The notes: generated by a model not told the origin, from the sequence alone. Shown: positions 10,986-31,125, counted from the whole stretch's first letter. The stretch: 62,880 nt of DNA, filler included, from Collodictyon triciliatum (GCA_043381765.1; 4 parts of 4 records of this genome joined end to end with filler, not necessarily neighbours in it); one strand, 5' to 3'. A program made the numbers and translations.

Positions 10986-11528
10986 TTCTCTTTTTTAGTT
11001 TTTTTTTTTTTAAAAAAAAAGCGTCTATGCTGGATATTCTGGCCTTTCCACTTTCCCAAGACGCGACAGCCAGATAGCAGTCAACAGCTAAGTGCCAAAA
11101 GAAAAGCAGTCTGTGATGTTGGTGTTGGACTCTGCATTCTTCTTTGAATGCGCAGAGTCCAAACAGTGCGGACACTGTAAAAAGACTGGCAAGTATGAGC
11201 ACAAGTGTGACAGGTCAAGCAAAACACAGCCCAAAACTGGGCGGCCTCGACCTGCGCGCAAAGCCACACCGGCCAAGCGTTCTGTATGATGATTCACTTG
11301 TGCAACTTGGCCACTTCCAGGAAAACTTCGGAGGGTTGAAGTTGATCTGAAAAGGCGGGTATATGTGACTCACGGGGCACAACCACTCGAAGCAACTGAC
11401 TCGACACACAACCTTACACTGATAAAGAATAAAGATGTTGAGAGAAGAGAGATGTGGCATGAGTGAAAGCGGACTGTGTTTTGACAATCGAACGCCACAG
11501 GACAAACATCCAAGGGCGCGGAGCAGCC

Positions 11529-14500: not shown

Positions 14501-15890
14501 TTCTATTTTTGTTTTCCTTTCTCTTACTCTTACACAACTGCCCTATAGAACGTTCTCTCGCTGCATTTGCGTGACTGATCGTTCCATCATTTCATCACAA
14601 GAAATGGTTATCGCGTCCTTACCGGTGTGTACGCGTGACAAAATTGATTCATTGAAGTAGAATTGTCCTAAAATCTAACTAATTATCGTGCGACCCAGCC
14701 TAACCGTTGTGGAAATGCACACCCGGTCCGCCTAAACCAGTGTGGAAACCACAGCTCTAACGCACCGAAAGGAAAATGTACGTTTGGTCACATATAAATT
14801 AACTGGTTTCAATACCTGGATAACTTTTCAAAGTTACCTTTACCTTTTTTTCTCCCCTTCTATTCTATCCTTTTTTTTAATTTTTTTTTTACCACAATTC
14901 TTACTGCCATCCTTTGTTTGAATTTATTTATTAACATTTATGTTTTCCACAGTCATTCTATATTTCTCCACACTATCTAGCGGAGAACGCTCACTTGTTG
15001 ATTTAAAGTCCAGTGTCGAGTTTATCACAACAACTCTCGATAATGACCCTACTAAACCTAAGCGACTATGGACCATGTTTTACACCCAGGTTTCAATTAC
15101 GTCACGAAATCTTGATAGACTTGCTAGATTCGTCCATATTTTAACTGAATTTAGGCATCGCATAATCGCACGCTTTACTTTATAGACATGCCACCATGAA
15201 CTTATTGCACAAAGGCCTGATAATATCTTTCTAACACCAGACCCCACGGGTGATATAGACCCAAGGTATGACTTTTTTTTTATTTCCCATTTCCAAATAT
15301 AATTTACAATCATATTATGAACCAATTCCTGTTTCGTTCCGTTTATACATTGCCATTAATATATACACTATTACATAACACAAACGCCACCATTGGCTTC
15401 CTTTCACGAATGAAGTTGCTCGGTGTTGGATGCAAAAGCTATATTTGAGAAGATATGTCCCAATACTGATTTTTTACTCAAACAAGTGGAGGAAGAAATT
15501 GTAAGCAATATTTTTTTTTATCGCTGCCTATTTGCTTGAAAAAGAACAAACTATACTCAAATTTCCAATAGCCAAAGAGCAGTCCCTTTTAGTTCAACCA
15601 AACATATGATTTAGTGCCCAGAGGACACAGAGGACTACATGGACGCTATGTCATTAGCCAGACTGCAACAAGAGTTGACCAAGGCGTCATCCAAACAACC
15701 AATGACAGATGCACCAGCGACTGAGAATACTTTGGAAAGTGAAATTGTTTCTACTCCACAAGAGCCCACAGAAATCCCTAGAGACCCCGAAGTTCTGCCA
15801 AGCCAAGAAACACCCCATGCATGCGAGACTGAAAATAGTGCGCAAGGTTATTCCCAGGATTTATCAATGGCCGGCGGGACAGAAAATTGA
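11529..15890 (+). CDS. CHM: Rab escort protein (REP/CHM, Rab GDI superfamily), multi-exon
   Basis: Motifs [58 protein letters not shown] and [26 protein letters not shown] long insert after the first conserved region and the C-terminal [15 protein letters not shown] plus acidic tail fit REP rather than GDI. Confidence 0.88.
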
Positions 15891-16105
15891 GTCCTACAGG
15901 CACTTCGAACTCTAAAAACAGTGCCCATAAAGCAAGGAAAAATACCAGCTTCATTTATTCATTTTTCCTTTTGTATATTTTGTGCGAGTGTAAGGCTTCA
16001 CTGCTCATTCTTTAACGAGAACATCAGCGATCAAATTAGGGGAATGAATCTGGGAAGTGGAAAAATAAAACAGGTTGTAGCAAAATATTGGCAGTGGTGG
16101 GTTTA

Positions 16106-16897
16106 TTACATGACCAGAGAATTCCTTCCACTGGGGCTAGACTGTAGTTTTTCTCCGCAGTTGAAGCAGAAATTATTGTTCATGGGATTTTCAGCGCGGC
16201 AGTTGCAACAAAAGTACCCACGATTACCGTCACCAAAAAAGACAGGCTGAATGTCTCGAATCTATTCAAGGAAGGGTAAGTTTGTTCCTTGATGTATGAA
16301 GGTAATAGGAAAATATCTCCGTTTGGCTGTTCAGATGAGAATAAAACTTGTTACCCTCCCAACCAACCAGTACGCGTAAATCAATGTGAGCATTAGACCC
16401 GCGGTCGCGATGAAAAATAATAGTGTTAAACCCCACCCGAGAGAGCCTTCCAAGGTGATATTATCAATGGCGATATCCGAGACCTTTGCAGACTCAGTTT
16501 TGACATCAATTTTGACAGGGCGCCTCATATTGTCAAATCGAAAGTCGTACCGCGTCAGAGGGGCGTTTGTCCTGTGCAGAGGTTTAGATGTTGGGGTCTG
16601 CGGTGATGGTCCAGTTGCTTCGATTCACGACGAACGCAGAAGATAGATAAATGGTAAGGTTGAATATAAAGAAAGAATGTTTACCTGAATACTGCATCCA
16701 TCTCCTCCAAAACCATGGCCAAAGTGATGTTGAAGCACAGGTCAACACAGTACTTTGGGGGGCGAGGCGGGGCGAGAGGCGCAGTTTGGCCCGGGGCGGA
16801 AGATCTCGTCACAACCTCGGACCAGAACTCATCCCAGGCCTGGTTTTGAGGCCCTGGTCGGCGCGGTTCGTAGAAGCATTCAATGCACGTCAGGTCT
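16106..16897 (-). CDS. 3' part of a single-pass membrane protein with C-terminal zinc ribbon (5' exons lost in gap)
   Basis: Spliced: …MDAVFR|TNAPLTRYDFRFDNMRRPV…GWGLTLLFFIATAGLMLTLIYAYWLVGR|IRDIQPVFFGDGNRGYFCCNCRAENPMNNNFCFNCGEKL…M*. One hydrophobic helix followed by CxxC-x10-CxxC. Confidence 0.6.
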
Positions 16898-16977
16898 GCA
16901 GCGAGGGTTGGTTATCCTGTCAAACATCTGCTGCGGTCTGAACATAAACGCGAGAGCGGAGGGGAAAGAGGGCCACA

Positions 16978-17938
16978 NNNNNNNNNNNNNNNNNNNNNNN
17001 NNNNNNNNNNNNNNNNNNNNNNNNNNNNNNNNNNNNNNNNNNNNNNNNNNNNNNNNNNNNNNNNNNNNNNNNNNNNNNNNNNNNNNNNNNNNNNNNNNNN
17101 NNNNNNNNNNNNNNNNNNNNNNNNNNNNNNNNNNNNNNNNNNNNNNNNNNNNNNNNNNNNNNNNNNNNNNNNNNNNNNNNNNNNNNNNNNNNNNNNNNNN
17201 NNNNNNNNNNNNNNNNNNNNNNNNNNNNNNNNNNNNNNNNNNNNNNNNNNNNNNNNNNNNNNNNNNNNNNNNNNNNNNNNNNNNNNNNNNNNNNNNNNNN
17301 NNNNNNNNNNNNNNNNNNNNNNNNNNNNNNNNNNNNNNNNNNNNNNNNNNNNNNNNNNNNNNNNNNNNNNNNNNNNNNNNNNNNNNNNNNNNNNNNNNNN
17401 NNNNNNNNNNNNNNNNNNNNNNNNNNNNNNNNNNNNNNNNNNNNNNNNNNNNNNNNNNNNNNNNNNNNNNNNNNNNNNNNNNNNNNNNNNNNNNNNNNNN
17501 NNNNNNNNNNNNNNNNNNNNNNNNNNNNNNNNNNNNNNNNNNNNNNNNNNNNNNNNNNNNNNNNNNNNNNNNNNNNNNNNNNNNNNNNNNNNNNNNNNNN
17601 NNNNNNNNNNNNNNNNNNNNNNNNNNNNNNNNNNNNNNNNNNNNNNNNNNNNNNNNNNNNNNNNNNNNNNNNNNNNNNNNNNNNNNNNNNNNNNNNNNNN
17701 NNNNNNNNNNNNNNNNNNNNNNNNNNNNNNNNNNNNNNNNNNNNNNNNNNNNNNNNNNNNNNNNNNNNNNNNNNNNNNNNNNNNNNNNNNNNNNNNNNNN
17801 NNNNNNNNNNNNNNNNNNNNNNNNNNNNNNNNNNNNNNNNNNNNNNNNNNNNNNNNNNNNNNNNNNNNNNNNNNNNNNNNNNNNNNNNNNNNNNNNNNNN
17901 NNNNNNNNNNNNNNNNNNNNNNNNNNNNNNNNNNNNNN
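16978..17938. other. Within-scaffold assembly gap (961 N)
   Basis: N run without the TTAATTAATTAA spacer. Confidence 0.95.
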
Positions 17939-17980
17939 TGAAGCCGAATATATATTAATATTAATATATATTCGGCTTCA
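17939..17980. repeat. Perfect 42-bp palindrome at the element end
   Basis: TGAAGCCGAATATATATTAAT|ATTAATATATATTCGGCTTCA; the second half is the exact reverse complement of the first. Confidence 0.97.
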
Positions 17981-18257
17981 CAATTGTTCTGAACCTGCAA
18001 TTTTGACATTGTTTCAGTGTATCCAGGGGGTTGGCGAGGCGTTTCTCAAGTCCTGGCGAGGGTATTGCCAACCTCCCAGGGCTTCCCCCACACTCTTTTT
18101 ATATGTCAGCCATCTCCGGAAATTATTCATTTGGTTTCGCCGTTTGTGTTGGAACTTAAGTCAGTAACAAAGGATTACATAAACAGCATGAGACCCCCCA
18201 CACTCTTTTAGGTGTCCAGGTTCGCCGTTTGTGTTCGTAAGTAGGTTTGCGGAAAAC

Positions 18258-18808
18258 GAGAGGGTGAGAGGGTGTAGAGGGTGTTTTTTGACCCCCCCCG
18301 GTTCCGGCTGGGATTGCCATTTCCGGTTTCCGGAATTACTATCCCCCCGGAAATGGGGGAACCGGAAATCCATTCTCACAGCTGAATAGGAATGAACACC
18401 CTCTCACCCTCTCACCCTCTCCAAATAATTATAAATATATAATATAAATATATAAGACTGAGAGGAGTAAGAGAATTAAACATATATTTCCGGAATTTTC
18501 CGGAAAAAATAAAAAATAGAGGGTGTTAGGGTACACCCTCTATTTTTCATAAATTGAAATTTCCGGGAATCCCAGCCTTAAAGGGAGTCGAATTGAGCAT
18601 TTTCTCCCTCATAATTTTTTCCTTATATCTTTAGTGCGGGGGCCAGGCTACTGACTCACCCACCCGGCTACCAACCGGGGGTAAGTATTTTCCGGAAATT
18701 TCCGGAAAAATCAGGGGGCGGGACGGGAACACCCTCTCTTTTTCAAAAATTTGGCGTGGATTTTCCGGGGGACGGGAACACCCTCTCTTTTTCAAAAATT
18801 TGGCGTGG
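18258..18808. repeat. Cluster of inverted and direct repeats (putative origin/terminal repeat region)
   Basis: (GAGAGGGT)3-like 18258-18285 is inverted against 18395-18421. There is a hairpin at 18512-18547, a 22-bp palindrome at 18688-18709 and a 40-bp direct repeat at 18720-18759/18769-18808. Confidence 0.9.
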
Positions 18809-18911
18809 GCTGGGTTTTGAGCAAAAAATTGCGGCAAGGTCTGGGGCTTGGGTAAAGTATTCAATTTAAATTGAATATTTTATTTAATGTTGGCGCGCCA
18901 GGGTAAGATGT

Positions 18912-19313
18912 TTATTCTGCTTCTACGTCGCTTAAGTGGTCTGAATCATAATCGTAATTTAATGTGCGTTTTTCTCCCACCGCCACAAACTCCATAAGAG
19001 ATTTCTCCAAAATATGCACCACCCTGTCAGAATCGCATCCCCTCTCTCTCATGTTGTTTGTTATCTGGGTTATTTTTATAAAAGACGTTTGCAGGGTTAG
19101 CGGGTCTTTGACTCTTTCCACGATTTCATGAAAATCATCAAGTGAATACGTATGCAGACCCCTAAATTTAATAATGAACCCCAGCCAATTTATTACGTAA
19201 AAATTTGTGGTACTAATTTCCCCATAATCGTCTTCAAATTCTTGGAAAACAATTTCAACTTTAAGGCCGTCAAAAGCAAAAGAGAAAATTTCGGGGTTGC
19301 TGGCGGAGTTCAT
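18912..19313 (-). CDS. Hypothetical protein of the mobile element (~133 aa from first ATG)
   Basis: Intronless ORF, divergent from the HNH gene across an AT-rich spacer. No motif recognised. Confidence 0.55.
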   Translation of the reverse strand: MNSASNPEIFSFAFDGLKVEIVFQEFEDDYGEISTTNFYVINWLGFIIKFRGLHTYSLDDFHEIVERVKDPLTLQTSFIKITQITNNMRERGCDSDRVVHILEKSLMEFVAVGEKRTLNYDYDSDHLSDVEAE

Positions 19314-19412
19314 TCCTATTCTTACAAAACAAAAAAATTTGAAATTTAAACGCACTTTTACATTTTTTCGACAGAATCATTTTCTAAAAAAAATATTTTT
19401 CTGAGAATCATT

Positions 19413-19907
19413 ATGACAGAAGTTGAGGTCTTTGCCCGGGTTTTGGATTTTCCTAATTATATGATTTCAAATTTTGGCCACGTCCTAAGAAATGGTCAAG
19501 TACTTAACCCATTTATAAATAACAGCGGTTATGCGAGCGTTATGTTATCAAATGGCACAATCCAGAAACCTTGTTTAGTCCATCGACTTGTAGCCACTTA
19601 TTTTGTGGAAAAAAATAACCCAGATTTTAATATAATTGACCATATAAACGGGAACAAGGCAGACAACCATTATACAAATATACGATGGTGCAATGCCTCA
19701 ATGAATGCCAGGAACCGAAAGGCAATTTTATCAAACACACAAATTCAGGGAGTACATAAACATAAAAATGGTTCTTTCGAGGTTTCTTATTATGTTGATA
19801 TATATCAACGAAAACGAAAATATTTTAAAGACTTGGATTCTGCCATAAAATGGCGTGAGAAGATGGTGGATATATATTATTCCAGGGTTAAAGCTTCCGA
19901 GCCCTGA
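19413..19907 (+). CDS. NUMOD4-HNH homing endonuclease with AP2-like C-terminal DNA-binding domain
   Basis: YMISNFGHV (NUMOD4), VHRLVA…IDHINGNKADNHYTNIRW…N (HNH), GVHKHKNGSFEV…KRKYFKDLDSAIKWR (AP2-like). Confidence 0.92.
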   Translation: MTEVEVFARVLDFPNYMISNFGHVLRNGQVLNPFINNSGYASVMLSNGTIQKPCLVHRLVATYFVEKNNPDFNIIDHINGNKADNHYTNIRWCNASMNARNRKAILSNTQIQGVHKHKNGSFEVSYYVDIYQRKRKYFKDLDSAIKWREKMVDIYYSRVKASEP

Positions 19908-20709
19908 AAACAACTGATTTCAATTTATCCGGGTCCCGCTGTAGGTCTGCGACGTTTTTGAGAATCTTCATGGCACTAGCCTGGAACCCTCCAAGGTACG
20001 CCCATCTCTCAATTTCTTTGTATGTTCTTGGCCCGTATTTTTGCCCGCCCTGTACACCATAATACCCGCCATTGTTATCTGCTTTTATGGTTATTTGATC
20101 GATCCCATTTGTGAAGGAAATCACCTTCCCCGTGGGGGTTCCGTTGTTTGCCACCGAGGTAACTTTTTCGCTTGAAAACATTGACGTGGGAGAGAATCCC
20201 GCCCCTGCTTTTTGTTCTCCCTTGACATAACCAGCCATAGCCCTGTTCTGGGCTTGCAGCTTTCTAATTAAATCCAAACGTTTAATTAGGTCCTTTGTAT
20301 CCTCGTCTGCAAATTCAATATATTGCGCGCCAATCCGGTCAAATTCGTTTATTAATTGTTGTTTGGTTTTTAGTTTCCAACCAGGGTCGTAATAATATTC
20401 AAGACTCTTTAACTCTTTCGGGGTAAACATCGGGTCATCTTCTTCCCCGGGAGCAGGTTCTTCCCCGGGAGCAGGTTCTTCATATTCTTGTTGTTCTTCT
20501 TGTGGTTCATCAGGGAAGCGAGATTCACGTAATGCCGAACTAAATGCCCGTCGCATTGACTCTGTAAACTCTTCAAGACCAATCTCAAATCCTTTTAATT
20601 GTTGTGGATTTTGAGATTTTGATCTGGCACGAGATGACTTTGGCTGTGATGATTCTGCTTCGGGTCTACCTGGGCGGTCTGGTTGTGGTGAATTATCTCT
20701 TAAAGACAT
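19888..20709 (-). CDS. Hypothetical protein of the mobile element (273 aa)
   Basis: Long intronless ORF with an EPAPGE duplication; overlaps the HNH stop by 20 bp. Confidence 0.75.
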   Translation of the reverse strand: MSLRDNSPQPDRPGRPEAESSQPKSSRARSKSQNPQQLKGFEIGLEEFTESMRRAFSSALRESRFPDEPQEEQQEYEEPAPGEEPAPGEEDDPMFTPKELKSLEYYYDPGWKLKTKQQLINEFDRIGAQYIEFADEDTKDLIKRLDLIRKLQAQNRAMAGYVKGEQKAGAGFSPTSMFSSEKVTSVANNGTPTGKVISFTNGIDQITIKADNNGGYYGVQGGQKYGPRTYKEIERWAYLGGFQASAMKILKNVADLQRDPDKLKSVVFRARKL

Positions 20710-20727
20710 ATGATAATAAACATTTTT

Positions 20728-21783
20728 TTACCTTAATTTTATATCTATATAAAAAGAATCTGATAACCTGACTCTCATCACGTTATTTGGAATTCTTTTT
20801 TTCCCCTTGTACTTCTCCTCTGGGGTTATTTCTTCTACATTAGTCTTCTCCTCTGGAAATAGTTCGACCCCTTTAATGTCTGGAAAAACACTTGATTTTC
20901 TAAATTTTTGCGATTTCAATCCTTTTTTTATTTCCTGGGTAAAATTTCCCTTTGGAGTTTTGTTATAAAAATCTTCTATATTGTCAATTAATGTATATAG
21001 TATGTCGTATTTGTTTGAGAAAGGTGTTATTGATTTTTCATGTTTAATGTTAACATCAAGCTGTAAGACATTATTATAAATATCTTTCTTGACTGACATA
21101 ATGTTATTTTTAATTACAACTTCATCTGACTTACCTTGTTTAATTTTAGTTGCTATAGTTTTTATGTCTTGGTGTATTTTATAAAGTTGATTTAATTCAA
21201 TACTTGAGTTTGTGCTCAATTCTTTCATATCCAGATCTTCACCAGGTATTTTTTTTGGGGTAGAAGGTTCCACCCTTTCCTCTTCTGGCTCCGCTTCAAG
21301 TCTCTGCAGCGACGTATCTGCTTTTGAAATTGCTTTAAAAAAATAATCTTTATGTCGTTCTGTGAATGAACTTGGTTTTAAAATTTGTTTCAAATTTACA
21401 TAATCTGTATTTGTATATTTACCAGTTAAATACGTTATTCTATCCCGTAGTTCTATCCCTTCAGGGGTTGACATGTTGACGACATACACTTTATTTGCCC
21501 TATCATAATGGTACGCAAAATTTAACACTGGAGACTTTATTTCATTTTCAGAATCTACATAAGAATTATACACATAAATTAAAGCATACATCATATGTAT
21601 ATAATCCTCGTCAGGGTAATAACTTTTTGAAAAATTATCTTTTTCTTTAAGTACAGATTCCCACAAATTATTTCGGTTTTCTTCTGTAAATTCTCCGATA
21701 CCGTTCTCATTTTTTATAATTTCTCTGGTATGGTGGGGCTTTTTGCTACCAGACATTATTTTAGATATTAGAGATTGACTCAT
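20728..21783 (-). CDS. Hypothetical protein of the mobile element (351 aa)
   Basis: Long intronless ORF in AT-rich DNA, 18 bp upstream of the 273-aa ORF. Confidence 0.78.
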   Translation of the reverse strand: MSQSLISKIMSGSKKPHHTREIIKNENGIGEFTEENRNNLWESVLKEKDNFSKSYYPDEDYIHMMYALIYVYNSYVDSENEIKSPVLNFAYHYDRANKVYVVNMSTPEGIELRDRITYLTGKYTNTDYVNLKQILKPSSFTERHKDYFFKAISKADTSLQRLEAEPEEERVEPSTPKKIPGEDLDMKELSTNSSIELNQLYKIHQDIKTIATKIKQGKSDEVVIKNNIMSVKKDIYNNVLQLDVNIKHEKSITPFSNKYDILYTLIDNIEDFYNKTPKGNFTQEIKKGLKSQKFRKSSVFPDIKGVELFPEEKTNVEEITPEEKYKGKKRIPNNVMRVRLSDSFYIDIKLR

Positions 21784-21935
21784 ATATATAAAAAAAAATA
21801 TATTCTAAAATATGAAAACACATTTTAAAAAATCCAAGGTTGAAAAGAAAAAGAAAGAAAAAAAGTTAAATTATAAAAAAGAGGTGGAGCCCTTTGCCTC
21901 GACTGTCCACCACTTCATCGAACGAAAAAAAAAAT

Positions 21936-23210
21936 ATGATGAACAACATGGAGACAAAAAAAAACAAAACGTCAATAATCCCAAAAAGCGAATGGCAAGC
22001 GAAAATTAGTGAAGTTTTTTACAATGAACCAAAACACACGATGTCCAGGGACGCCCTTTTTACAGCTGTACGGCAATATGGAATTTCCAGATCATATGTA
22101 GATAAATTTATAAAAAGTCAACCAGACTGGCAAATTTTGCAACGAGCTCCGAAACCTAAGGAGACCCCGACGATTATGCGATATGAACCGGGTTACGTGC
22201 AAATTGATACAATTGACATCAAAAATATGGAAAGTGATTCTGCTAAATACTTACTGACATGCGTTGATGTTTTTACACGAAAATTGTGGGCGTATCCACT
22301 GGAATCAAATACAGCAACGGAGGTCGCCCGGCAACTACAAAAATTTATAAATTCATATAAGATACTCAAAACGATACAGTCAGACAACGGGGCCGAGTTT
22401 GTTAACGAGACCGTTAAACGGTTGTTAGAGTCAAGAAACATAACCCACGTTAAGAGCTTACCGGCTACCCCAACGAGTCAGGCGTATGTGGAAAGAAACA
22501 ACGGGACTTTAAAGAGGGCTCTTTATGGCTACATGCAGAAAACAGGTAAGGACCCTATTCCAGACCTCGACAGCTTTGTAGATTCTTTAAACTTACAACC
22601 AAATGCCACAACGGGGGTCGTTCCGGCTGTTGCCATGCTTCCAGAATATAAAGACAAGATTCTCGAGAATATGGAAAAATATAACTCTAAGAAAAACGAC
22701 CAGGGCAACACCAAAGATTTAGAACCGGGCGAAAAAGTACGGGTTCGACTAGAAAAAACAGATATACCGGCGGATATGAGAAACAAAATAAAGAAACAAA
22801 AAGGATACCTCCCAAGGTGGTCGGCATCAGTCTATAAAATAAAACAAAGGTTCGAAGCTAAATCGACCTGGGCCCTGCCATCATACACCCTAGACACATC
22901 TGATAGTCTAAAAAACAAACGTTTTAGAAGATCGGATTTATTAAAGCTGTCAGAAGAGACAAAGATAGAGACCCATAAACCAAAGTCAACCCAAAAAATG
23001 AAAGAGTCGGCCCCGTCTATTCTAAATTATTTCTCTGGTCAACCCACAAGAGAAATCGACGAGGAAGATGAGTTTTATGAATATATAAGACCCAGAGAAA
23101 GACGTCCGAGCGGGCCAGAGGAAGCGGAATATATTCGATTTAATGAACAAACAAAAATAAAGCAAGCTAATGAACGGAGTAAAAGATTGCTTAACAGGAA
23201 TAAAAAATAA
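21936..23210 (+). CDS. Retroviral-like (rve, DDE) integrase of Polinton/Maverick-virophage type
   Basis: VQID…LTCVDVFTRKLWAYPL…IQSDNGAEF…QAYVERNNGTLK with exact D-x35-E spacing. The N-terminus (FYNEP…ISRSYVDKFIKSQ) lacks HHCC, and the C-terminal GEKVRV…KGYLPRWSASVYKI is typical of Polinton-type integrases. Confidence 0.93.
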   Translation: MMNNMETKKNKTSIIPKSEWQAKISEVFYNEPKHTMSRDALFTAVRQYGISRSYVDKFIKSQPDWQILQRAPKPKETPTIMRYEPGYVQIDTIDIKNMESDSAKYLLTCVDVFTRKLWAYPLESNTATEVARQLQKFINSYKILKTIQSDNGAEFVNETVKRLLESRNITHVKSLPATPTSQAYVERNNGTLKRALYGYMQKTGKDPIPDLDSFVDSLNLQPNATTGVVPAVAMLPEYKDKILENMEKYNSKKNDQGNTKDLEPGEKVRVRLEKTDIPADMRNKIKKQKGYLPRWSASVYKIKQRFEAKSTWALPSYTLDTSDSLKNKRFRRSDLLKLSEETKIETHKPKSTQKMKESAPSILNYFSGQPTREIDEEDEFYEYIRPRERRPSGPEEAEYIRFNEQTKIKQANERSKRLLNRNKK

Positions 23211-23732
23211 TTATGTTTTACTGGGTTGCATGGCTTTACTAATTGATTTTTTTGGCTCTCTCTTTTTTCTAGGGGTCGCCTGGGTCTCTTCCTTCTTTAC
23301 TTCTTTAAGTTCTTCCGCTATTTTTTCGTTATCATATTTCACGCTTCTCTCTCGGTTACTGTCACGCGTCTCTGCCGCTTTCTTTCTCCCCTTTTTGATA
23401 ATCTCTTCCACGTCTTTCTTAGTTTTGAAAAACATGACGACGTTATCCTGGTTCACGCTCCATTTTGTTGCGTACTGTCTAAAGAAAAAAACTTTATCTT
23501 TATTGCCCTTCCGTCTGACTTGTTCTTCTTCATCTGGGACAGCCGAAATAAAACCACCTTTCTTCCATCCTCCTTCTGTATCTGTACCGCTGTTATATTT
23601 CCTTGGTTTTGCGATATATGCAATATAGTCCCCGACCTGTATGTCTTCCGGGGCAATCGGCGCCCAATCTTCGGAGCTAAAATTTTCTGGGAGCAACTTC
23701 TTTATTGTTTCGGTAATTTCTGGGGGAGCCAT
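23211..23732 (-). CDS. Hypothetical SH3-like beta-barrel protein with basic tail (173 aa)
   Basis: IQVGDYIAY…WKKGGFI…KWSVNQDNVVMFFK. Its stop codon directly abuts the integrase stop. Confidence 0.75.
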   Translation of the reverse strand: MAPPEITETIKKLLPENFSSEDWAPIAPEDIQVGDYIAYIAKPRKYNSGTDTEGGWKKGGFISAVPDEEEQVRRKGNKDKVFFFRQYATKWSVNQDNVVMFFKTKKDVEEIIKKGRKKAAETRDSNRERSVKYDNEKIAEELKEVKKEETQATPRKKREPKKSISKAMQPSKT

Positions 23733-23793
23733 GTTTATTGCTAGAAAAAAAATATTTATAGAAAATATTTTTTTTATTTAAATGCAAATTTAC

Positions 23794-25779
23794 TTAATCA
23801 TATGTTTCTGGATAGTAATCGTCTATTTTAAATTTTAACCCATTTTCTTTATTTCTCAATTTGTCAACAGATATATTATAAAACGTACCCAGCTCATAAA
23901 TATCCGAATTCTCTGCATTTTTTCGTAATTTTGTGTATTCCTTTCTAATAAATAACTCTGGATATTTCGAGATATATTCTTTTAATTCTGGACTTTTTAT
24001 AAACGATTTAAACTTGAGATTTTTCACAAATTCCGGAGCTGCTATAGTGTTACAAACCTCTTTATATAATTCAAAAAACAACTGAGCTTTAACAACTACT
24101 ATCTCTTTTTTATGAAACTCGAATCCACCTTTTTTGAGGTATCCGTATTTTTCTTCATAGTAGCTGTCCCACTCAAATAAAATAATATCCATGAATTGGA
24201 AAAACGTTGGTTTAAATGTTTCCTTCAACTCTTCTTGTGTGTCACATTTTGGCAACTTGTCATAATTAAAATTCGGGTCATACATCTTTAAGATATACAA
24301 TAAGAGTAATCTGTTATAATATTCGTTTCCACTCTCTTCCCGTAATTTTTTTTGATCTTCCTCACTCAATCTATATTCTTTGCAATCTATCATGGGGAAT
24401 CTTCTGTGATTTTCAGATTCAAATTCGAACGCACATTGTTTATTCGTTAATGCGATATAGCTCGTATAGTTCTTGACCGGGAAGGGGTCCGTCCTCATCA
24501 ATTTTATTTCTGATCGTGATCGGGTTATCGCAGCTTTTATATTTTCAGTAAATTTCTTTGTGTCCTTGGCCCCTGTCTCTTCGCACAATATAAGCAATTT
24601 GTTAAATATACTCGCATTAAAGTATCCAAAGAGGTGAGCGGCTTCACTCTGACTAGTGAAATAAGTTTCTCCCAGTAACTTATTGGCAAAATGTCTCTCA
24701 AGAAATCCAGATTTTCCAGAACCTCCCGTAGCGTTGCGCAAACAAAGTGCTTTCTCGCATAATTTTGGTGTGTTAAAAAGTATATTGCCCAGTATATTTA
24801 TAAAGTACTTTATATTGTACTCTTGTATATTCTTGTCGTTATGGAAACAAAATATCTCCTCAATTTGCCATTTGGTTTTTGAGTTGTCCCAGTCAATTTG
24901 CTCTTGTTCTGTCAATGGAGTATTTTTCAAGTCTGCAACCAATTTTTTATAATTCTCGTTAGACATGAGACCCGGGTTCCCAAACAGTGCGGTCCATGGG
25001 TGGCCCTTAAACGTGTTATATACTCCCTTTGGTACATCTACGCCATACGGATAAAAGCCAAACATAACATATTGCCGCATAGGATACGCACAGACTGTTT
25101 CCCAAACATCTTGAGGCTTGCAATTAAATTCCTCGTGAAATTGCATAACGTAGGACTTGGCGTTTTGTATTTCTTGTGGGCGGTCAAATAATTCGTTTTC
25201 GCGATACAACTTTCCGTTCATTGTAAAATGCGTGTGCCAAAAATCAGGCGGTGGCGGTTCTGTTTTTGGAGGCACATAAGAAAATTCCCAGTCCATTTTC
25301 ATCTTCTTTTCTGTCAATTTGACTTCATACGATGTTTTTTCTTTTATAAACGCTTCGCAGGCTCTTAAAAGATGTTCCGGGAAATCTGATTCTCCATTTT
25401 TTCGAATCATACAACCATCGTGAATTAGCACGTCCACGCTTCGGCCTGCTGAGGTAAAAAATTCATTCATGGCCTCCAAGAGAATTCTCTCCTCAGTTTG
25501 GAGAAACAATGAAAGCATCTTAAATTTTTTATTTGGCCCAGCCTGTGAAAGACAGTGATTGTCATTGCGTAATCGAAGGGGCTGCCAGTCTTTTTTTTCT
25601 TTCCATATAAATTCGGCAAGCTGATTCCATTCATTTTGAATGTTTGAAAGGTCGTTATATACCAATTCAATGTCAAAAGATTGGCAATAATTTGGGATTT
25701 CAGCAAATTCAGGAGCTTGCCCGCCGTACGCTATTTTTAACAATGCGATCTTGGCGTCAAATCGATCCATGTTGAACCT
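23794..25779 (-). CDS. PolA-like primase-polymerase (TVpol) fused to SF3/D5-like helicase, 5'-truncated
   Basis: DAKIALLKIAYGG (motif B-like) and LQTEERILL…VLIHDGCMI (motif C-like), then Walker A GGSGKS, Walker B LILCEE, motif C IALTN and RRF. The frame stays open to the scaffold end. Confidence 0.85.
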   Translation of the reverse strand, partial: RFNMDRFDAKIALLKIAYGGQAPEFAEIPNYCQSFDIELVYNDLSNIQNEWNQLAEFIWKEKKDWQPLRLRNDNHCLSQAGPNKKFKMLSLFLQTEERILLEAMNEFFTSAGRSVDVLIHDGCMIRKNGESDFPEHLLRACEAFIKEKTSYEVKLTEKKMKMDWEFSYVPPKTEPPPPDFWHTHFTMNGKLYRENELFDRPQEIQNAKSYVMQFHEEFNCKPQDVWETVCAYPMRQYVMFGFYPYGVDVPKGVYNTFKGHPWTALFGNPGLMSNENYKKLVADLKNTPLTEQEQIDWDNSKTKWQIEEIFCFHNDKNIQEYNIKYFINILGNILFNTPKLCEKALCLRNATGGSGKSGFLERHFANKLLGETYFTSQSEAAHLFGYFNASIFNKLLILCEETGAKDTKKFTENIKAAITRSRSEIKLMRTDPFPVKNYTSYIALTNKQCAFEFESENHRRFPMIDCKEYRLSEEDQKKLREESGNEYYNRLLLLYILKMYDPNFNYDKLPKCDTQEELKETFKPTFFQFMDIILFEWDSYYEEKYGYLKKGGFEFHKKEIVVVKAQLFFELYKEVCNTIAAPEFVKNLKFKSFIKSPELKEYISKYPELFIRKEYTKLRKNAENSDIYELGTFYNISVDKLRNKENGLKFKIDDYYPETYD

Positions 25780-25879
25780 NNNNNNNNNNNNNNNNNNNNN
25801 NNNNNNNNNNNNNNNNNNNNNNNTTAATTAATTAANNNNNNNNNNNNNNNNNNNNNNNNNNNNNNNNNNNNNNNNNNNN
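25780..25879. other. Artificial scaffold-joining spacer
   Basis: 100 nt of N with central TTAATTAATTAA (stops in all six frames). Confidence 0.97.
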
Positions 25880-25976
25880 AAATAAAAATAAAAATAAAAA
25901 TAAAAATAAAAATAAAAATAAAAATAAAAATAAAAATAAAAATAAAAATAAAAATAAAAATAAAAATAAAAATAAA
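25880..25976. repeat. (AAAAAT)n microsatellite
   Basis: Tandem hexamer at scaffold start. Confidence 0.9.
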
Positions 25977-26181
25977 AAGAGAAAGAAAAAGAAAAATAAA
26001 AAGAAAAAGAAATGAAAAAAAAACGAAACACTTTAGAAACAAACAGATTTACATACCTTGTATAAATTGGAAAAAAAAAAGAGGACGAGTAAAAACGGTC
26101 AAGATAACAAAAAAATAAAAAAATAAAAGATGTATTTAAAGACAAATTCTATTCATACTTTCGTTCTGAGCTCAATATCAA

Positions 26182-29100
26182 ATGATTCAGATGGGGCTTG
26201 TCTCCCTTATAACAGTGCTTCTTTCTCTAGGTATGTCTCAAATTATATAAAGCATTGAAATTATAATAAATTTCAAAAAAAAAAAAAGCACGTCAAGCAC
26301 TTCATCTGATCACATAAGATTTTCAAGCGTAAGCCAGATAAATCTCATCCTATATTCAGCTATTGCATTAGGCGCTTCGTCTGTCACTGCTAGTGACAGT
26401 TCTACAGCCACACTTGTTAGCCAAAATGTCCACACAAACAAAATCAGGTGCGTTGCAGCGTCTCCTGATGGTTCAAATATAATCTCAGCTAGCGACGACG
26501 GGACTTTGAAACTATGGGAATTGTCTGATGGGCGCATGATTCTCACCTTTCTTGGGCATTCCGACGCTGTCTTGTCGGTGAGGTTCTCCTCAAATGGACT
26601 TTACATAGTGTCTGGGGGAGCTGATAAGACCATAAAAAAATGGGACACATCGGCTGGCTCTGTGGCGCTTACCATGCTTGGCCACACGGGCGCAGTGAGA
26701 TGCATCGCTCTTTCCCCGGATGGCATGACTATAGCCTCTGCTAGTGATGACACAACCATAAAGCTGTGGGATTTTTCAAATGGAGGCCTGGCAAATACAA
26801 TCCATGGGCACACAAGCGCGATACTAAGTTTAGCTATATCTCCCAACGGATTGAGGCTTGTGTCTGGTGGTGGCGATAGTACTATCAAAGTTTGGGACAT
26901 TACAAACGGAAGCATTATACGCACCATTTATGGACACACAGACGGTGTTTTGTCTGTGGCATATTCACCTGACGGAACATATCTAGCATCAGGCAGTGCG
27001 GATGCTTCTGTAAAACTGTGGGATGCCTCGAATGGTTCCATTGTTTCTGCCTTTCATGGACACAATAGTCAAGTAAACAGTGTCTGTGTCAGCCAAGACG
27101 GGCTCAAGCTATTATCAGCCAGTAATGACAAAACTGTGTCAGTATGGAGTCTCGAAACTGGAAAGGAGCTTCATCAATTAAGCCAACACACTGGGCATGT
27201 CAATAGTGTTACAATTACCCCAGACAACTTGTTTATCGTTTCTGGCAGTAGCGATATGACTATGAATTGCTGGGGTATTGAAGATGGGATTCTCACCAGG
27301 ACACTTTCTATATCTAGCGATGTAAACAGCATTTCAGTCACTCGGGATGGCAATAGCATCATTTCAGGAAGCAACGACAACACAGTAAAAATATGGGATC
27401 CAAAAAATCAGGCTATACTAAGGACGTTGTCTGGCGGAACTGGCTTTGTTGAGTGCGTTGCCATGTCAACCGATGAAAAGAAAATAATATCGGGCCATGG
27501 GTGGCCAGACAATTCTGTCAGAGTATGGGATTTTGAAAGTGGCGGTCTCATCTATTATCTACGAGGACATTCAAACTCAGTGAATGACGTTCTTGTCACC
27601 CCTGATGATTCGAGAATCATATCTGCCAGCAGCGACAACACCATCAAGATTTGGGCTCTTTCTGATGGTGCTATTACCCGAACATTTAAAGCACATAGCG
27701 CGATGGTGAGTGACATTGCTTTGAGTTCAGATGGTCTAATCCTTGTTTCTGCTTCATATGATTCCACGGTCAAGATTTGGAGCCTTTTGGAATCTAAGCT
27801 CATCCAAACTCTAACTGGGCACGTAGGCCAAGTTCTAGCCGTCTCAATTACACCTGATGGAAAACAAGTAATATCAGGGGGATGGGATGCGCTCATAAGA
27901 ATATGGGATATTTCAGATGGTTCATTGATTCGCTCATTGTCTGGACATATCGACCAAATATATTCAATCTCAGTTAGCCCCAGTGGCCAAAGGATTGTTT
28001 CGGGCAGTGCCGACCAAGCCATCAAAATCTGGGACATTTCAGGCGGAAGCTTGTTACATACATTCATGGGGCACAAAGGCAGCGTAAAATCTGTTGTTGT
28101 TTCGGCAGATGGCGATAGAATCGTGTCAGGAAGCGGCGATAACACAATAAAGCTTTGGATACTATGCCACAGAGGCAGCTATTACGACAAGTCACTCAAT
28201 TCTTGCCACATGTGTAGTCCAGGCTCCTATATACCGCCAAATCAATATTATTATTGTTCTCTTTGTCCATACGGAACATTCCACCAACTTTATGGGTCTA
28301 CAGATCCGGACGAATGCCTGCCATGTCCACCAGGAACTTACAGTCCGACAAGTGGCAGTTCAGCATGCCTTGATTGTGAGGCAGGCACATACAATGGCGC
28401 GCTAGGTCAAAAATTATGTATAGAATGCCCGTCGGGTTTCTACAACCCCCTAGTTGCGCAGCAATTTTGCATTCCGTGCTCGGCTGGTTCATACTCTAAT
28501 ACAACGAAATCTAAAACATGTGATTTATGCCCAGCTGGTACTTTCAATCCGAGTGTGGCTGCAAACGGTATTACTCAATGTATTGCATGCCCCAGCGGAA
28601 CCTACTCGGCATTCCAGGGCCAATCGTCTTGTGATTTGTGTCTCCCTGGGCAATACAATCAAAAAATAAACCAGATAGAGTGCAGTTCATGCCCTAAAGG
28701 TACATACAACCCCAATTATGGAAAAAAAGAACTGACATCATGCCTGGAATGCCAACCTGGGACATATGGTTCACAAGACATGACAGAATGTACTCCATGC
28801 CCCCAAGGCACCTTCAATGAGGAGGGGGGAGTTACAGATTTGACGTCTTGTTTGGAATGCCCCGATGGGAGTTACAGCGCTGAGAGAAGCGCATATTGCA
28901 TCTCCTGTTCACCTGGATTCTACCAAAAGGAAGGAGTTTCAAAGAATGCTACCTCTTGTCAAAAGTGTCCGAAAGGAACATTCAATCCTTTTTCTGATTC
29001 GTATGGAAAGTCCTCATGTGTTGGATGTCCTCAGGGCACGTACAATAATAGGGAAGGGCTGGCGTCGTGTACATCCTGTCCAGCCGGGACATTCAATAAC

Positions 29101-31125
29101 CACACTACATCTGTTGACCTGTCATCATGCATTATTTGCGCCAAAGGTAGTTATAGTTCTGAAAGGAGTTCAACGTGCAATTTATGCCCAACGCGTTCGA
29201 CTACAGACGACACCGGCTCCAAAAGCATCGGAGATTGCAAGTGTTCAACCTCATATGCTTCGTATGACGGACTCTGCACATGCGAGCCAGGTTTCTTCGA
29301 AGACGAGGGAATGTGCCGACCTTGTCGAGTTGGTTACTATAAGGCAACTTATGACACCGGGTTTTGTATGTCATGTCCAATCGGATCTACAACAAACACC
29401 ACAGGCGCAGTGAGTTTAGATGAGTGTGAATGCAAGGATGGATACGAATATTACGGCGATTTATGTATGTGCGGACCGGGGAATTTCGAAGATGATGGCG
29501 CCTGCTATCGCTGCCCCTCAAACACGTATAATCCGGATTATGGACAAACGTCTTGCCGCGAATGCCCACCAAACTCAATTACCACTTCAACAGGCTCAAA
29601 ATATTTTTCAGAGTGCGCATGTATGCTAAATACATACCTTGACACAGAAATGATGAAGTGTATTGATTGCCCAAATGGATTTTTGTGCGATGGTAGTAGC
29701 AAAATAAGTGTCGCTCCGGGGTATTGGCAAACACAAAGTTCCACCGGAGATTACGTCGCATACAAATGCTTAAATCAAGAGGCTTGCTTTGGAGGAAGCA
29801 ATAACACGTGTGCCACGGGTTACTCAGGGCCATTATGCAGTGTATGCGAAAAGGGGTATGGAAAAGTTGGATATAGTTGCACACGATGCCCGTCTGAGGC
29901 AGCAAGTGGGTTGTTGGTATTTCTGAGCATAGTGATGCCCCTCCTGTTTGTTGATTTTATGATTGAGCAGTCCAGGCAGCCGCAGACTAGTGGCATTTTG
30001 ATTTTGAAGCTTTTGTTTACACATTTCCAAATTCTTTCTTACCTGGCCAACTTTGATGTGGATTGGAGCTCCTCTATCGTTTCGATGATGCAGATTCCAG
30101 CTGTTTTCTCCTTTTCTTTATCAGTGGATACATACCCGATGGAATGTCGCTTTGATATGAGCACCTATGACCGGTTGTTTTACTCGATGATAACACCGGT
30201 TGTCTTGGGGCTTGTTGTGATTGTGATTGTCTTTCTTCGTAACATGTACAGACTGTATGCGGATGAGATAACAAAGAAGGAACTAACCTACTTTAGGTTT
30301 CGGCAGGAATTCATCTATTCAGCACTTGTGATGCTCTTTTTTGTGCACCCCACTGTCACAGCGAATATAGCAAAGATATTCCCGTGCGAAACGCTGGGCC
30401 AGCATGATTACTTGAAGGCTGATATGAAGATTGAATGCAATAACCCCACGTATCGTATGTGGAGAAGTATATCGCTTGTCTATGTGGTTGTGTACTGCCT
30501 CATGGGGCCAATTATGCTTATGGTCCGTATAATCAGAAAGAGGCGGTCGCTGGGTAACCCCACGTCCAGCACCTACACGTTGTTGCGGTTTCTGGTGGAC
30601 GGCTACACAGAGCGATGCCAGTACTGGGAGATTGTCTCTATGCTGCAAAAGATTTTGACGGTATTGATAGCCGTCTTCTTTTCCACCTCGCTTCAGATAT
30701 ACTTTGGACTCTGGCTGATGTTCCTCATGATGGCGTTCTCGATTCATTATCGCCCATTCATGTCCAATGTTATGAAGAGAGCACAACTGGAGTCCCTCCT
30801 GGCATTGTACTTTACTCTCATGCTGAGCCTGCTATTCCACCGCTCCAATCTTCGCAGCGTTGTGGAGCTTGTTTTATTGGTTCTCATCATCGCCGCAAAC
30901 GGGGCCATCGCAGCCAAGTTCCTTTCAATCGGCGGCCCTGCCTTGCTGAGGCTTATCCTGTGGAGGACAAGCGACTTGATTGGGCAGCTTTTCGACTTTG
31001 TCGCCCACCAGGCGCTGAAGCCACTGCTTGCCGTCGCGCTCAGGCATAGGGGCGCAGGAAACCGCTCCAGCGATGCAGAGTTGGAGAATCCTGTGGCAAA
31101 GAGAGACACTGCGGAGTCCCTGTGA
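26182..31125 (+). CDS. Signal peptide + 14 WD40 repeats + Cys-rich (GCC2/GCC3, ephrin-receptor-like) repeats + multi-pass TM domain
   Basis: Exon 26182-26230 splices (GT 26231…AG 26359) into the 1539-aa frame, giving MIQMGLVSLITVLLSLAIALGA. It then has 14 GH…WD repeats, many CxxCPxGTY repeats and about 9 hydrophobic segments with FLVDGY…YWE…PF motifs. Confidence 0.88.

What the first reader, a model, noticed from the sequence alone, without database searches (positions are those of the whole stretch)
17939..25779. Candidate new class of self-replicating integrative DNA element: TVpol-SF3 helicase + Polinton-type integrase + palindromic end, no pPolB or capsid visible
Seen: a 7.8-kb intronless, AT-rich block of seven tightly packed ORFs inside an intron-rich eukaryotic scaffold, with all frames intact. 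Known: Polintons/Mavericks and mavirus pair the rve integrase with a protein-primed PolB, whereas TVpol-SF3 helicase fusions occur in Sputnik-type virophages and some Polinton-like viruses, typically with tyrosine recombinases. Inference: this element combines the rve integration module with a primase-polymerase replication module and a palindromic end. It may be an undescribed Polinton-like virus/virophage lineage or a capsid-less self-synthesising transposon or linear plasmid. The right part is cut off by the scaffold end, so absence of capsid genes is unproven.
Basis: partly seen in the sequence, partly recalled or inferred. Interest (0 to 1): 0.88.

Follow-up and report, generated by a model that had tools for sequence, protein, structure and literature searches.

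The report
Fragment of a Polinton-like virus
This block is one end of a small capsid-forming DNA virus of protists (a Polinton-like virus) whose capsid genes lie just beyond the end of the assembled scaffold, so it is an ordinary member of a known group rather than a new class of element.

Summary
The block exists. From 18912 to 25770 there are seven close-packed ORFs (96% coding), preceded by about 970 bp of repeat-rich non-coding DNA that starts with a perfect 42-nt palindrome.

It is not contiguous with host DNA. A 961-N scaffold gap lies on its left. On its right is an artificial scaffold-join linker.

- An rve (DDE) integrase.
- A family-A-polymerase (TVpol) + SF3 helicase fusion, confirmed by structure on a 90%-identical full-length homologue.
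- An HNH/NUMOD4 homing endonuclease.

The replicase ORF runs off the scaffold end and lacks about 138 N-terminal residues.

The "no capsid, new class" reading fails. [quoted passage not shown] These sit directly upstream of the replicase, exactly where the window breaks.

The block is therefore a fragment of a Polinton-like virus of a freshwater lineage with no functional names in the databases I searched. Published surveys already describe such endogenous viruses with polymerase-helicase replicases, rve integrases and terminal palindromes.

Integration into the host is not demonstrated.

Verdict: new member of a known kind; low-to-moderate interest.

The parts
16978..17938 (.). Scaffold gap of 961 N. 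It is the only link between the block and the host-like left flank.
17939..17980 (.). Perfect 42-nt palindrome (two 21-nt arms) at the first base after the gap. Either a candidate hairpin-forming terminus or an assembly fold-back.
   Evidence: the 122-nt stretch 17939-18060 folds as DNA at -25.2 kcal/mol, z -5.7, with the palindrome as one hairpin
17981..18911 (.). Non-coding, repeat-rich end region. It holds TTCCGGAA palindromes (5 of the window's 7), all 6 of the window's CACCCTCT copies and 4 of its 7 AGAGGGTG copies (the same motif on the other strand), and a 40-nt direct repeat present twice. It belongs to the element and is a candidate terminal repeat or origin region.
   Evidence: A roughly 90%-alike freshwater DNA contig covers 18027-18408 and 18544-18901 (record 1).
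18912..19355 (-). ORF of 147 aa with no family match. It is poorly matched in the metagenomic relative, so it is a doubtful or fast-evolving gene.
   Evidence: joints at 18901-19163 and 19194-19252
19413..19907 (+). HNH_3 + NUMOD4 homing endonuclease, 164 aa.
   Evidence: Pfam 9.1e-8 and 1.8e-5, both above cut-off; PHROG HNH families down to 1.8e-23
19888..20709 (-). ORF of 273 aa. It has a low-complexity N-terminus and a conserved C-terminal domain of about 170 aa, function unknown. The domain is syntenic in L001 and also occurs in the distant PLV contig L008 next to the ATPase.
   Evidence: 25 representative clusters at E<=0.001; no Pfam or PDB match
20728..21783 (-). ORF of 351 aa, unknown function. 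It is conserved and syntenic in L001 (45% identity).
21936..23210 (+). rve-type DDE integrase, 424 aa from the first ATG (438 aa from the TTG of table 11).
   Evidence: Pfam rve 1.8e-15; PDB retroviral integrase cores; D105, D164 and E200 invariant in 14 sequences
23211..23732 (-). ORF of 173 aa, unknown function. It is syntenic in L001 (73% identity). 10 of 12 listed differences from relatives fall at codon position 3.
23794..25779 (-). Family-A polymerase (TVpol) + SF3 helicase replicase. Its 5' end is cut by the scaffold end. About 138 N-terminal residues are missing, including two invariant aspartates of the polymerase domain.
25780..25879 (.). Artificial scaffold-join linker (44 N, TTAATTAATTAA, 44 N), which marks the end of the scaffold.

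Best explanation
The block is the replication/integration end of a Polinton-like virus (PLV), a small double-jelly-roll-capsid DNA virus of protists. Short-read assembly broke it on both sides.

Gene order in the window is: terminal non-coding repeats with a palindrome, o147, HNH endonuclease, o273, o351, rve integrase, o173, TVpol-S3H replicase. [quoted passage not shown] That is the part lost at the scaffold end.

Inferred mechanism:
- The PolA-like domain, fused to a hexameric SF3 helicase, replicates the linear genome without a protein-primed PolB.
- The DDE integrase inserts the genome into host chromosomes through its terminal repeats.
- The ATPase packages DNA into an icosahedral capsid.
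- The HNH gene is a nested selfish homing endonuclease.

Shown here: the domain identities, the synteny with capsid-bearing relatives, conservation of the non-coding end in a relative, and purifying selection.

Inferred only: integration in this host, terminal inverted repeats, hairpin priming, and any dependence on a giant virus.
For: 1. Replicase relatives. 69 proteins match at E<=0.001. The 13 closest (E<=7e-81) are 697-824 aa against 658 aa in the window, so the window copy is truncated.

2. Metagenome scan. It returned 7 loci, 4 of them close relatives (L001-L004) and 3 distant. L001 matches five block genes in the same order and relative orientation: replicase 65%, o173 73%, integrase 76%, o351 45%, o273 68% identity.

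3. Packaging ATPase. Upstream of the replicase, L001 and L002 carry a 240-aa Pox_A32 ATPase (3e-13, above cut-off) and L003 a 246-aa one (1e-8).

4. Capsid protein. L002 continues with a 144-aa ORF and a 523-aa open ORF identical to the 585-aa P0070. The AF2 model of P0070 (26 sequences, pLDDT 69, pTM 0.74) matches double-jelly-roll capsid proteins: SGIV 6.5e-15, PBCV-1 Vp54 1.9e-14, mavirus 7.5e-13, Sputnik 3.4e-12, plus NCLDV, virophage, adintovirus and MELD-virus capsid proteins in BFVD.

5. L001 and L002 are one virus population. They overlap over 3510 bp at 99.86% identity.

6. Indirect co-occurrence. An integrase homologue (P0104), a replicase homologue (P0003) and an MCP homologue (P0084) each report a longest contig of 12095 bp. 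P0103 and P0002 both report 11846 bp, and P0009 and P0082 both 16634 bp.

7. Replicase fold. The P0001 model (pLDDT 85.3) matches, over residues 1-298, Pol theta (Z 15.6), Klenow (14.9) and T7 DNA polymerase (12.5). Over residues 308-772 it matches the NrS-1 helicase (Z 22.6), the SaPI5 primase-helicase (17.3) and vaccinia D5 (15.5). Full-length BFVD matches include the Qinghai Lake virophage helicase/primase/polymerase (8e-32) and the Zamilon DNA replication protein (1.3e-27).

8. Freshwater relatives. A freshwater DNA run holds contigs about 90% alike across all 30 depth bins of the block, including the non-coding end. Contigs from three metatranscriptome runs of one study lie on ORF parts between 19362 and 25776. 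One of them runs 42 nt past the scaffold end.

9. Purifying selection. 28 of the 40 listed differences fall on codon position 3 (binomial p 2e-6). A further 528 differences were not shown by the tool.

10. Literature (passages read). PLVs have variable replicases, including PolA(TVpol)-S3H, and either tyrosine recombinases or rve integrases (PMC4642659, PMC12220804, PMC10120064, PMC11161782). Such elements break up in short-read assemblies (PMC10120064).
Against: - No capsid, ATPase or penton gene lies in the window itself. tblastn of nine L001-L003 proteins against the whole window gave nothing better than E 0.23.
- The whole genome is not held, so this particular copy could have lost its morphogenetic module.
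- The closest homologue, P0001 (90%), sits on a contig of only 3.9 kb, so context is known only for relatives at 65% identity or less.
- No minor capsid (penton) protein was identified in L001/L002. The 263-aa ORF of L003 is only a guess.
- No terminal inverted repeat, target-site duplication or host junction is visible.
- Two scans of IMG/VR with the replicase found no relative.
- Assignment to PLVs rather than virophages rests on the absence of a visible protease and on literature patterns, not on a capsid phylogeny.
Confidence: 0.82

Rival explanations
1. The block is a capsid-less, self-replicating integrative element (a transposon or linear plasmid) built from TVpol-S3H plus an rve integrase. 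Either this copy or the whole lineage in this host has dispensed with virions.
For: No structural gene lies in the 7.8 kb available. [quoted passage not shown]
Against: The replicase ORF itself runs off the scaffold end, so the element clearly continues. In every close relative with upstream sequence, the A32 ATPase lies directly upstream of the replicase (L001, L002, L003). L002 also carries the MCP there.
Confidence: 0.05
2. The block is not integrated. It would be a contig of a free or episomal PLV (or of a virus of a co-cultured organism) that was joined to a host contig by mis-scaffolding across the 961-N gap.
For: No base-level junction with host DNA exists. The contig begins with a palindrome that could be a genuine genome terminus. 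Relatives about 90% alike occur in freshwater metagenomes.
Against: The element encodes an intact-looking DDE integrase. Scaffolders need read-pair links to place a contig. Endogenous PLVs typically fragment in exactly this way in short-read assemblies (PMC10120064, passages). None of this is proof.
Confidence: 0.2
3. The element belongs to the virophages rather than the PLVs, and in either case it replicates only with a helper giant virus.
For: The replicase's best named BFVD matches are virophage proteins (Qinghai Lake virophage, Zamilon). The intergenic regions are AT-rich and share a TTTTCTA motif: 3 copies in 288 nt against 3 in 6571 coding nt, with 2 of 2000 shuffles reaching that count. 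From memory, this resembles the TCTA late-promoter motif reported for CroV and mavirus. The only IMG/VR contig with a related MCP (L008) was binned with a giant-virus MAG.
Against: No cysteine protease or virophage-type capsid signature was seen in the L001/L002 sequence. The MCP model matches NCLDV capsids as well as or better than the mavirus and Sputnik capsids. The motif statistic rests on three sites. PolA-S3H is shared between virophages and PLVs by exchange (PMC11161782, passages).
Confidence: 0.15

Closest known systems
Polinton-like viruses with a PolA(TVpol)-S3H replicase (PgVV/Gezel-14T, PLV-YSL1, PLV-RED1; cryptophyte, Tetraselmis and Cymbomonas endogenous PLVs)
   Same: The replicase has the same domain fusion. 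Relatives carry a double-jelly-roll MCP and an A32 ATPase. Genes are compact and intronless, and HNH_3/NUMOD4 homing endonucleases occur as passengers (PMC12220804, passages).
   Different: In the passages I read, these PLVs mostly pair TVpol-S3H with a tyrosine recombinase, a DDE transposase or no integrase (PMC12220804, PMC10675990, PMC9356565). This lineage pairs it with an rve integrase. Sequence identity to any named virus could not be measured, because every close database hit is unnamed or 'hypothetical protein'.
Endogenous virophages and PLV subtype 4 of Halocafeteria seosinensis (bioRxiv 10.64898/2026.07.28.741278)
   Same: The passages report terminal palindromes at the ends of the inverted repeats. 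These are preferentially associated with non-pPolB replicases (D5 primase-helicase, PolA-S3H) and particular RVE integrases, with replication and integration genes near one genome end. This is the same trio as here.
   Different: The host is a marine or halophilic stramenopile and the elements are different. Here the palindrome is seen at one end only, at a contig edge, and the inverted repeat and target-site duplication are unverified.
Polintons/Mavericks and mavirus-type virophages
   Same: rve-type DDE integrase; small linear dsDNA virus with MCP and A32 ATPase (in relatives).
   Different: No protein-primed PolB was found in the block or in L001-L003. No Ulp1-type protease was seen. The replicase is PolA-S3H instead.
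Tlr1 element of Tetrahymena
   Same: A PLV-type element that keeps the rve integrase but replaces pPolB with a polymerase-helicase fusion (PMC11161782, passages).
   Different: Tlr1 uses a pPolB-derived palm fused to an SF1 helicase. Here a family-A polymerase domain is fused to an SF3 helicase.
Sputnik/Zamilon V13-type replication protein
   Same: Full-length structural match of the replicase model to the Zamilon 'DNA replication protein' (1.3e-27) and the Qinghai Lake virophage helicase/primase/polymerase (8e-32).
   Different: Identity is only 16-17%. As recalled, and as stated in PMC12220804 passages, Sputnik-type virophages carry a tyrosine recombinase, not rve.

Membership tests
Polinton-like viruses (PLV) | [quoted passage not shown] | tested here: met
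   Met for syntenic relatives. L002's ORF equals the 585-aa P0070, and its model matches DJR capsids of SGIV, PBCV-1, mavirus and Sputnik at 6.5e-15 to 3.4e-12. It is not present in the window itself, because the scaffold ends.
Polinton-like viruses (PLV) | A32/FtsK-type genome-packaging ATPase | tested here: met
   Pox_A32 at 3e-13 (L001, L002) and 1e-8 (L003), directly upstream of the replicase. Absent from the window.
Polinton-like viruses (PLV) | Minor capsid (penton) protein | tested here: inconclusive
   No Pfam hit for any candidate. The L003 263-aa ORF is only a guess from its N-terminal sequence.
Polinton-like viruses (PLV) | Genome of 14-40 kb bounded by terminal inverted repeats, with target-site duplication when integrated | not testable with these tools
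   Only one end is present and no whole genome is held. The other end and the host junction are missing.
TVpol (PolA)-S3H replicase | N-terminal family-A-polymerase-like domain | tested here: met
   P0001 model residues 1-298 match Pol theta (Z 15.6, rmsd 3.6, 269 aligned), Klenow (14.9), T7 DNA polymerase (12.5) and T7 RNA polymerase (9.9). The window copy keeps only the part from P0001 residue 139 onward. In P0001 numbering, invariants D94 and D96 are lost to the cut, while K145, G154, G155 and D256 are retained. Sequence-only searches did not detect this domain: Pfam and PDB.
TVpol (PolA)-S3H replicase | C-terminal superfamily 3 helicase with a Walker A P-loop | tested here: met
   Pfam DUF5906 at 9.5e-16 over residues 348-457. 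G349, G350, G352 and K353 are invariant. NrS-1 C-terminal region Z 22.6, D5 Z 15.5.
Polinton / Maverick | [quoted passage not shown] | tested here: not met
   No PolB family hit in any of the 8 window ORFs scanned, the 7 scanned against PHROGs or the ORFs of L001-L003. The replicase present is PolA-S3H. Unseen parts of the genome remain untested.
Polinton / Maverick | Retrovirus-type (rve) DDE integrase | tested here: met
   PF00665 at 1.8e-15, 57.5 bits against a cut-off of 32.6. D105, D164 and E200 are invariant in 14 aligned sequences. Retroviral integrase cores match at 1.5e-8.
Virophages (Sputnik/mavirus type) | Virophage-type MCP together with a cysteine maturation protease | tested here: inconclusive
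   No protease was seen in the sequence of L001/L002 or L003. The MCP fold search does not separate virophage capsids from NCLDV or PLV capsids. No phylogeny was made, because no named reference sequences were at hand.
HNH homing endonuclease (I-HmuI-like) | HNH_3 catalytic motif with a NUMOD4 DNA-binding module | tested here: met
   PF13392 at 9.1e-8 and PF07463 at 1.8e-5, both above cut-off. 17 PHROG families match at E<=0.01, of which 14 are annotated HNH endonuclease and 3 have no known function.

The most novel reading that the evidence does not exclude
This freshwater PLV lineage would be a distinct, as yet unnamed group. It stably combines an rve integrase with a PolA-S3H replicase, and its genome ends in hairpin-forming palindromes. 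The family-A polymerase domain would then start synthesis from a self-primed terminal hairpin (rolling-hairpin style) rather than from a terminal protein or a primase. That would be a replication mode not shown experimentally for any Polinton-related virus, and so far only proposed as a model in one 2026 preprint.
Probability: 0.15. Interest if true: 0.55.

Novelty: new member of a known kind. Interest (0 to 1): 0.25.

Why it matters
As it stands, the block adds one more fragmentary endogenous or associated Polinton-like virus to the thousands already reported in protist genomes.

Three points have modest value:
1. It documents a freshwater lineage that carries no functional name in the databases I searched: every close hit is unnamed or 'hypothetical protein', and only two more distant integrase hits carry generic family labels. 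The lineage pairs a PolA-S3H replicase with an rve integrase. The passages I read describe that pairing as uncommon for PLVs, though known.
2. The lineage is under purifying selection, and near-identical sequence appears in freshwater metatranscriptome libraries, so it is probably an active virus.
3. If the terminal palindrome is real, it is a second, independent case of the palindrome + non-pPolB + rve association recently noted in Halocafeteria. That association bears on how these viruses prime replication.

The case also shows how N gaps and join linkers can make a virus fragment look like a capsid-less element.

Tried and rejected
- Whole genome: not held. The element could not be extended or counted in its own assembly.
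- The look-up of encoding contigs: closed, so it was not called. The Logan contigs of 11.8, 12.1 and 16.6 kb that probably hold complete relatives could not be fetched. Co-occurrence on them is inferred from equal contig lengths only.
- Supplementary tables of the PLV surveys are closed. They may list elements with exactly this gene set.
- Blanc et al. 2015 (Bigelowiella provirophages, PMC4586850) is not held. Nothing from it is used.

Searches that found nothing useful:
- IMG/VR scans with the replicase, as a single sequence and as alignment A1, found no relative. With the MCP alignment, one distant contig (L008) came up. It shows no terminal inverted repeat within 3 kb of its ends.
- tblastn of P0001 against the phage collection gave one weak hit, to the helicase part only.
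- A sequence-only PDB search with the replicase profile gave 0 hits at E<=1.
- o351 and o273: no Pfam or PHROG family and no usable Atlas hit. The o273 family profile has no PDB hit, and no meaningful Pfam hit in 26 members. Their functions stay unknown.
- No tRNA and no Rfam family in the block.
- No second copy or inverted copy of any block sequence elsewhere in the window.

Sequencing runs:
- No run of the source organism was served. The four runs that hold part of the block are all freshwater metagenomes or metatranscriptomes with small shares (0.06-0.18).
- In the three RNA runs, the depth bins from 17939 to 18986 had zero cover. RNA libraries may also contain DNA.
- Part of o147 (about 18901-19252) is skipped or poorly matched in the DNA relative.

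Motifs:
- The palindromic AT motif AAAAATATTTTT (up to 1 mismatch) gave 7 matches against 2.0 expected, 3 of them in block intergenic DNA. The motif is not kept in L002-L004, so I make no claim from it.

Complex prediction was not used. No binding claim is made.


Full report
**What is in the window**

The region 17939-25779 is a single contig piece. On its left is a run of 961 N (16978-17938). On its right is a 100-nt unit made of 44 N, TTAATTAATTAA and 44 N (25780-25879). That unit recurs at 51623-51722 and 59409-59508, so it is an artificial linker between separate scaffolds. The block is therefore tied to the host-like left flank only by scaffolding across a gap, and it ends where its scaffold ends.

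Within the block:
- 17939-18911 is non-coding.
- 18912-25770 holds seven ORFs covering 96% of the bases, with gaps of -20 to 110 nt.
- The left flank 1-16977 has no ATG-ORF above 259 aa, as expected for intron-rich eukaryotic DNA.
- GC is 0.376 in the block against 0.409 in the flank, a mild difference.

**The genes**

Family searches gave the following:
- The 164-aa ORF is an HNH_3 + NUMOD4 endonuclease.
- The 438-aa ORF (424 aa from its first ATG) is an rve integrase. Pfam gives 1.8e-15, and it matches retroviral integrase catalytic cores in the PDB at 1.5e-8. D105, D164 and E200 are invariant across 14 homologues, which fits a DDE triad.
- The 658-aa ORF carries an SF3-helicase domain (DUF5906, 9.5e-16).
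- The 147-, 273-, 351- and 173-aa ORFs match no family.

**The replicase is truncated by the assembly and is a PolA(TVpol)-S3H fusion**

Of 69 homologues at E<=0.001, the 13 closest are 697-824 aa. They align over the whole window protein and add about 138 residues at the N-terminus. The nine bases between the window's ATG and the linker still read R-F-N, as in the 90%-identical P0001. The ORF therefore simply runs off the scaffold.

An AlphaFold2 model of P0001 (24-sequence alignment, mean pLDDT 85.3) was aligned against 48,161 PDB representatives:
- Residues 1-298 match family A polymerases: Pol theta Z 15.6, Klenow 14.9, Pol nu 13.0, T7 DNA polymerase 12.5, T7 RNA polymerase 9.9.
- Residues 308-772 match the NrS-1 C-terminal region (Z 22.6), the SaPI5 primase-helicase (17.3) and vaccinia D5 (15.5).

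In BFVD the best named full-length matches are the Qinghai Lake virophage 'helicase/primase/polymerase' (8e-32) and the Zamilon 'DNA replication protein' (1.3e-27). The window copy lacks the part holding two invariant aspartates (D94 and D96 of P0001).

**Relatives show what lies beyond the scaffold end**

One scan of metagenome contigs returned 7 loci, 4 of them close relatives.
- L001 (7.3 kb) has homologues of five block genes in the same order and relative orientation: replicase 65%, o173 73%, integrase 76%, o351 45%, o273 68% identity.
- Upstream of the replicase, transcribed divergently, L001 and L002 have a 240-aa protein matching Pox_A32 (3e-13). L003 has a 246-aa one (1e-8).
- L002 continues with a 144-aa ORF and a 523-aa open ORF identical to the 585-aa P0070.
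- A model of P0070 (26 sequences, pLDDT 69, pTM 0.74) matches double-jelly-roll major capsid proteins: Singapore grouper iridovirus 6.5e-15, PBCV-1 Vp54 1.9e-14, mavirus 7.5e-13, Sputnik 3.4e-12. In BFVD it matches capsid proteins of giant viruses, virophages, an adintovirus and a MELD virus.
- L001 and L002 overlap over 3510 bp at 99.86% identity. One virus population thus carries MCP, the 144-aa gene, ATPase, replicase, o173, integrase, o351 and o273.

There is also indirect support from reported contig lengths. Homologues of the integrase, replicase and MCP each report a longest contig of 12095 bp. Two further pairs share 11846 bp and 16634 bp. I could not fetch those contigs.

Nothing resembling these structural genes lies elsewhere in the window (best E 0.23).

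**The non-coding end**

The region 17939-18911 is rich in short repeats:
- 5 of the window's 7 TTCCGGAA sites.
- All 6 CACCCTCT copies and 4 of the 7 AGAGGGTG copies (the same motif on the other strand).
- A 40-nt unit repeated exactly 49 nt apart.

A freshwater DNA-run contig about 90% alike covers 18027-18408 and 18544-18901 (record 1). This region therefore belongs to the element, not to the host.

The perfect 42-nt palindrome occupies exactly the first 42 bases after the gap. The 122-nt stretch that begins with it folds as single-stranded DNA at -25.2 kcal/mol (z -5.7), with the palindrome paired as one hairpin. The relative's contig starts at 18027, so the palindrome is unconfirmed elsewhere. 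A palindrome sitting at a contig edge can be a genuine terminus or an assembler fold-back, and I cannot tell which.

**Activity**

Four freshwater runs from two studies hold small shares of the block.

When laid, the DNA run's contigs cover all 30 depth bins at roughly 85-95% likeness. Contigs of three metatranscriptome runs lie on ORF parts between 19362 and 25776. One continues 42 nt past the scaffold end. RNA libraries can contain DNA, so transcription is suggested, not shown.

Of the 40 differences the tool listed (528 more were not shown), 28 fall on third codon positions (p 2e-6). This indicates purifying selection on o173 and on the replicase.

**Other ORFs**

- The C-terminal ~170 aa of o273 define a small family of 25 representative clusters at E<=0.001, with variable N-termini. 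There is no Pfam or PDB match.
- A member of that family lies next to the ATPase in L008. L008 is a distant PLV-like IMG/VR contig that instead carries a D5_N-type helicase, ThyX and a GIY-YIG nuclease. This illustrates replicase swapping on a related capsid backbone.
- o351 and o173 are conserved only in the close relatives.
- o147 is poorly matched even in the 90% relative.

**Comparison with what is known**

All papers below were read as passages only; section 11 of PMC12220804 was read whole.
- PLVs are defined by MCP, mCP and an A32-like ATPase, with patchy replication and integration genes. [quoted passage not shown]
- In cryptophyte, Cymbomonas and Tetraselmis elements, this replicase mostly goes with a tyrosine recombinase, a DDE transposase or no integrase (PMC12220804, PMC10675990, PMC9356565).
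- Large surveys state that endogenous elements carry 'pPolB or primase-helicase' and 'tyrosine recombinase or rve-type integrase', and that they break into separate contigs in short-read assemblies (PMC10120064).
- A 2026 preprint on Halocafeteria reports terminal palindromes at the ends of the inverted repeats. These are preferentially associated with non-pPolB replicases and particular RVE integrases, and the authors propose hairpin priming (10.64898/2026.07.28.741278).
- I found no passage that names this lineage. Searches. Supplementary tables were closed and may list it.

**Verdict**

The domain calls are right. The 'new class / capsid-less' interpretation is not supported.

The best explanation is a fragment of a Polinton-like virus whose capsid module lies past the scaffold end (confidence about 0.8). 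Integration in this host is unproven: about 0.2 that it is a free virus contig mis-scaffolded.

Novelty: new member of a known kind. Interest 0.25. The boldest reading still open is hairpin-primed replication by the family-A polymerase in a stable rve + PolA-S3H lineage (probability about 0.15).

Noticed in passing
window 25780-25879, 51623-51722, 59409-59508: An identical 100-nt unit (44 N, TTAATTAATTAA, 44 N) occurs three times. The window is therefore a concatenation of at least four separate scaffolds, and adjacency across these points has no biological meaning.
   Followed up: yes
window 19356-19412, 21784-21935, 23733-23793: The AT-rich intergenic regions of the block share a TTTTCTA motif: 3 copies in 288 nt against 3 in 6571 coding nt, with 2 of 2000 shuffles as high. 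The stretches upstream of the o173 and o351 homologues are visibly conserved in L001. This may be a shared promoter. From memory, it resembles the TCTA late-promoter motif of CroV and mavirus.
   Followed up: partly
window 26506-31125 (+) and 52709-54676 (-): Two long intronless host ORFs on other scaffolds. One is about 1530 aa, with 12 WD40 repeats, 11 ephrin-receptor-like cysteine-rich repeats and a hydrophobic C-terminal part. The other is a 655-aa WD40 protein.
   Followed up: partly
L005 10001-10447, L006 4957-5403, L007 2508-2954: Three compost-metagenome contigs (15-48 kb) encode a segment 30% identical to residues 15-145 of the window replicase, which lie in its polymerase part. L005 and L006 have a second short match. 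These are distant TVpol-like polymerases in an unknown context.
   Followed up: no
L008 1-12855: This IMG/VR contig, binned with a giant-virus MAG, is a PLV-like genome piece. Its MCP is 34% and its ATPase 49% identical to L002's. It also carries an o273-domain protein, ThyX, a GIY-YIG nuclease, a DUF5754 protein and a 699-aa D5_N helicase in place of PolA-S3H.
   Followed up: partly
window 25880-25990 and 3-100: Scaffold starts consist of AAAAAT/AAATAA-type microsatellites, about 18 units at 25880-25975, with a related A-rich repeat at the window start. Assembly seems to break at simple repeats as well.
   Followed up: no
window 18901-19252: The freshwater DNA relative skips or poorly matches most of the 147-aa ORF, although it matches both sides. 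This ORF may not be a conserved gene.
   Followed up: partly
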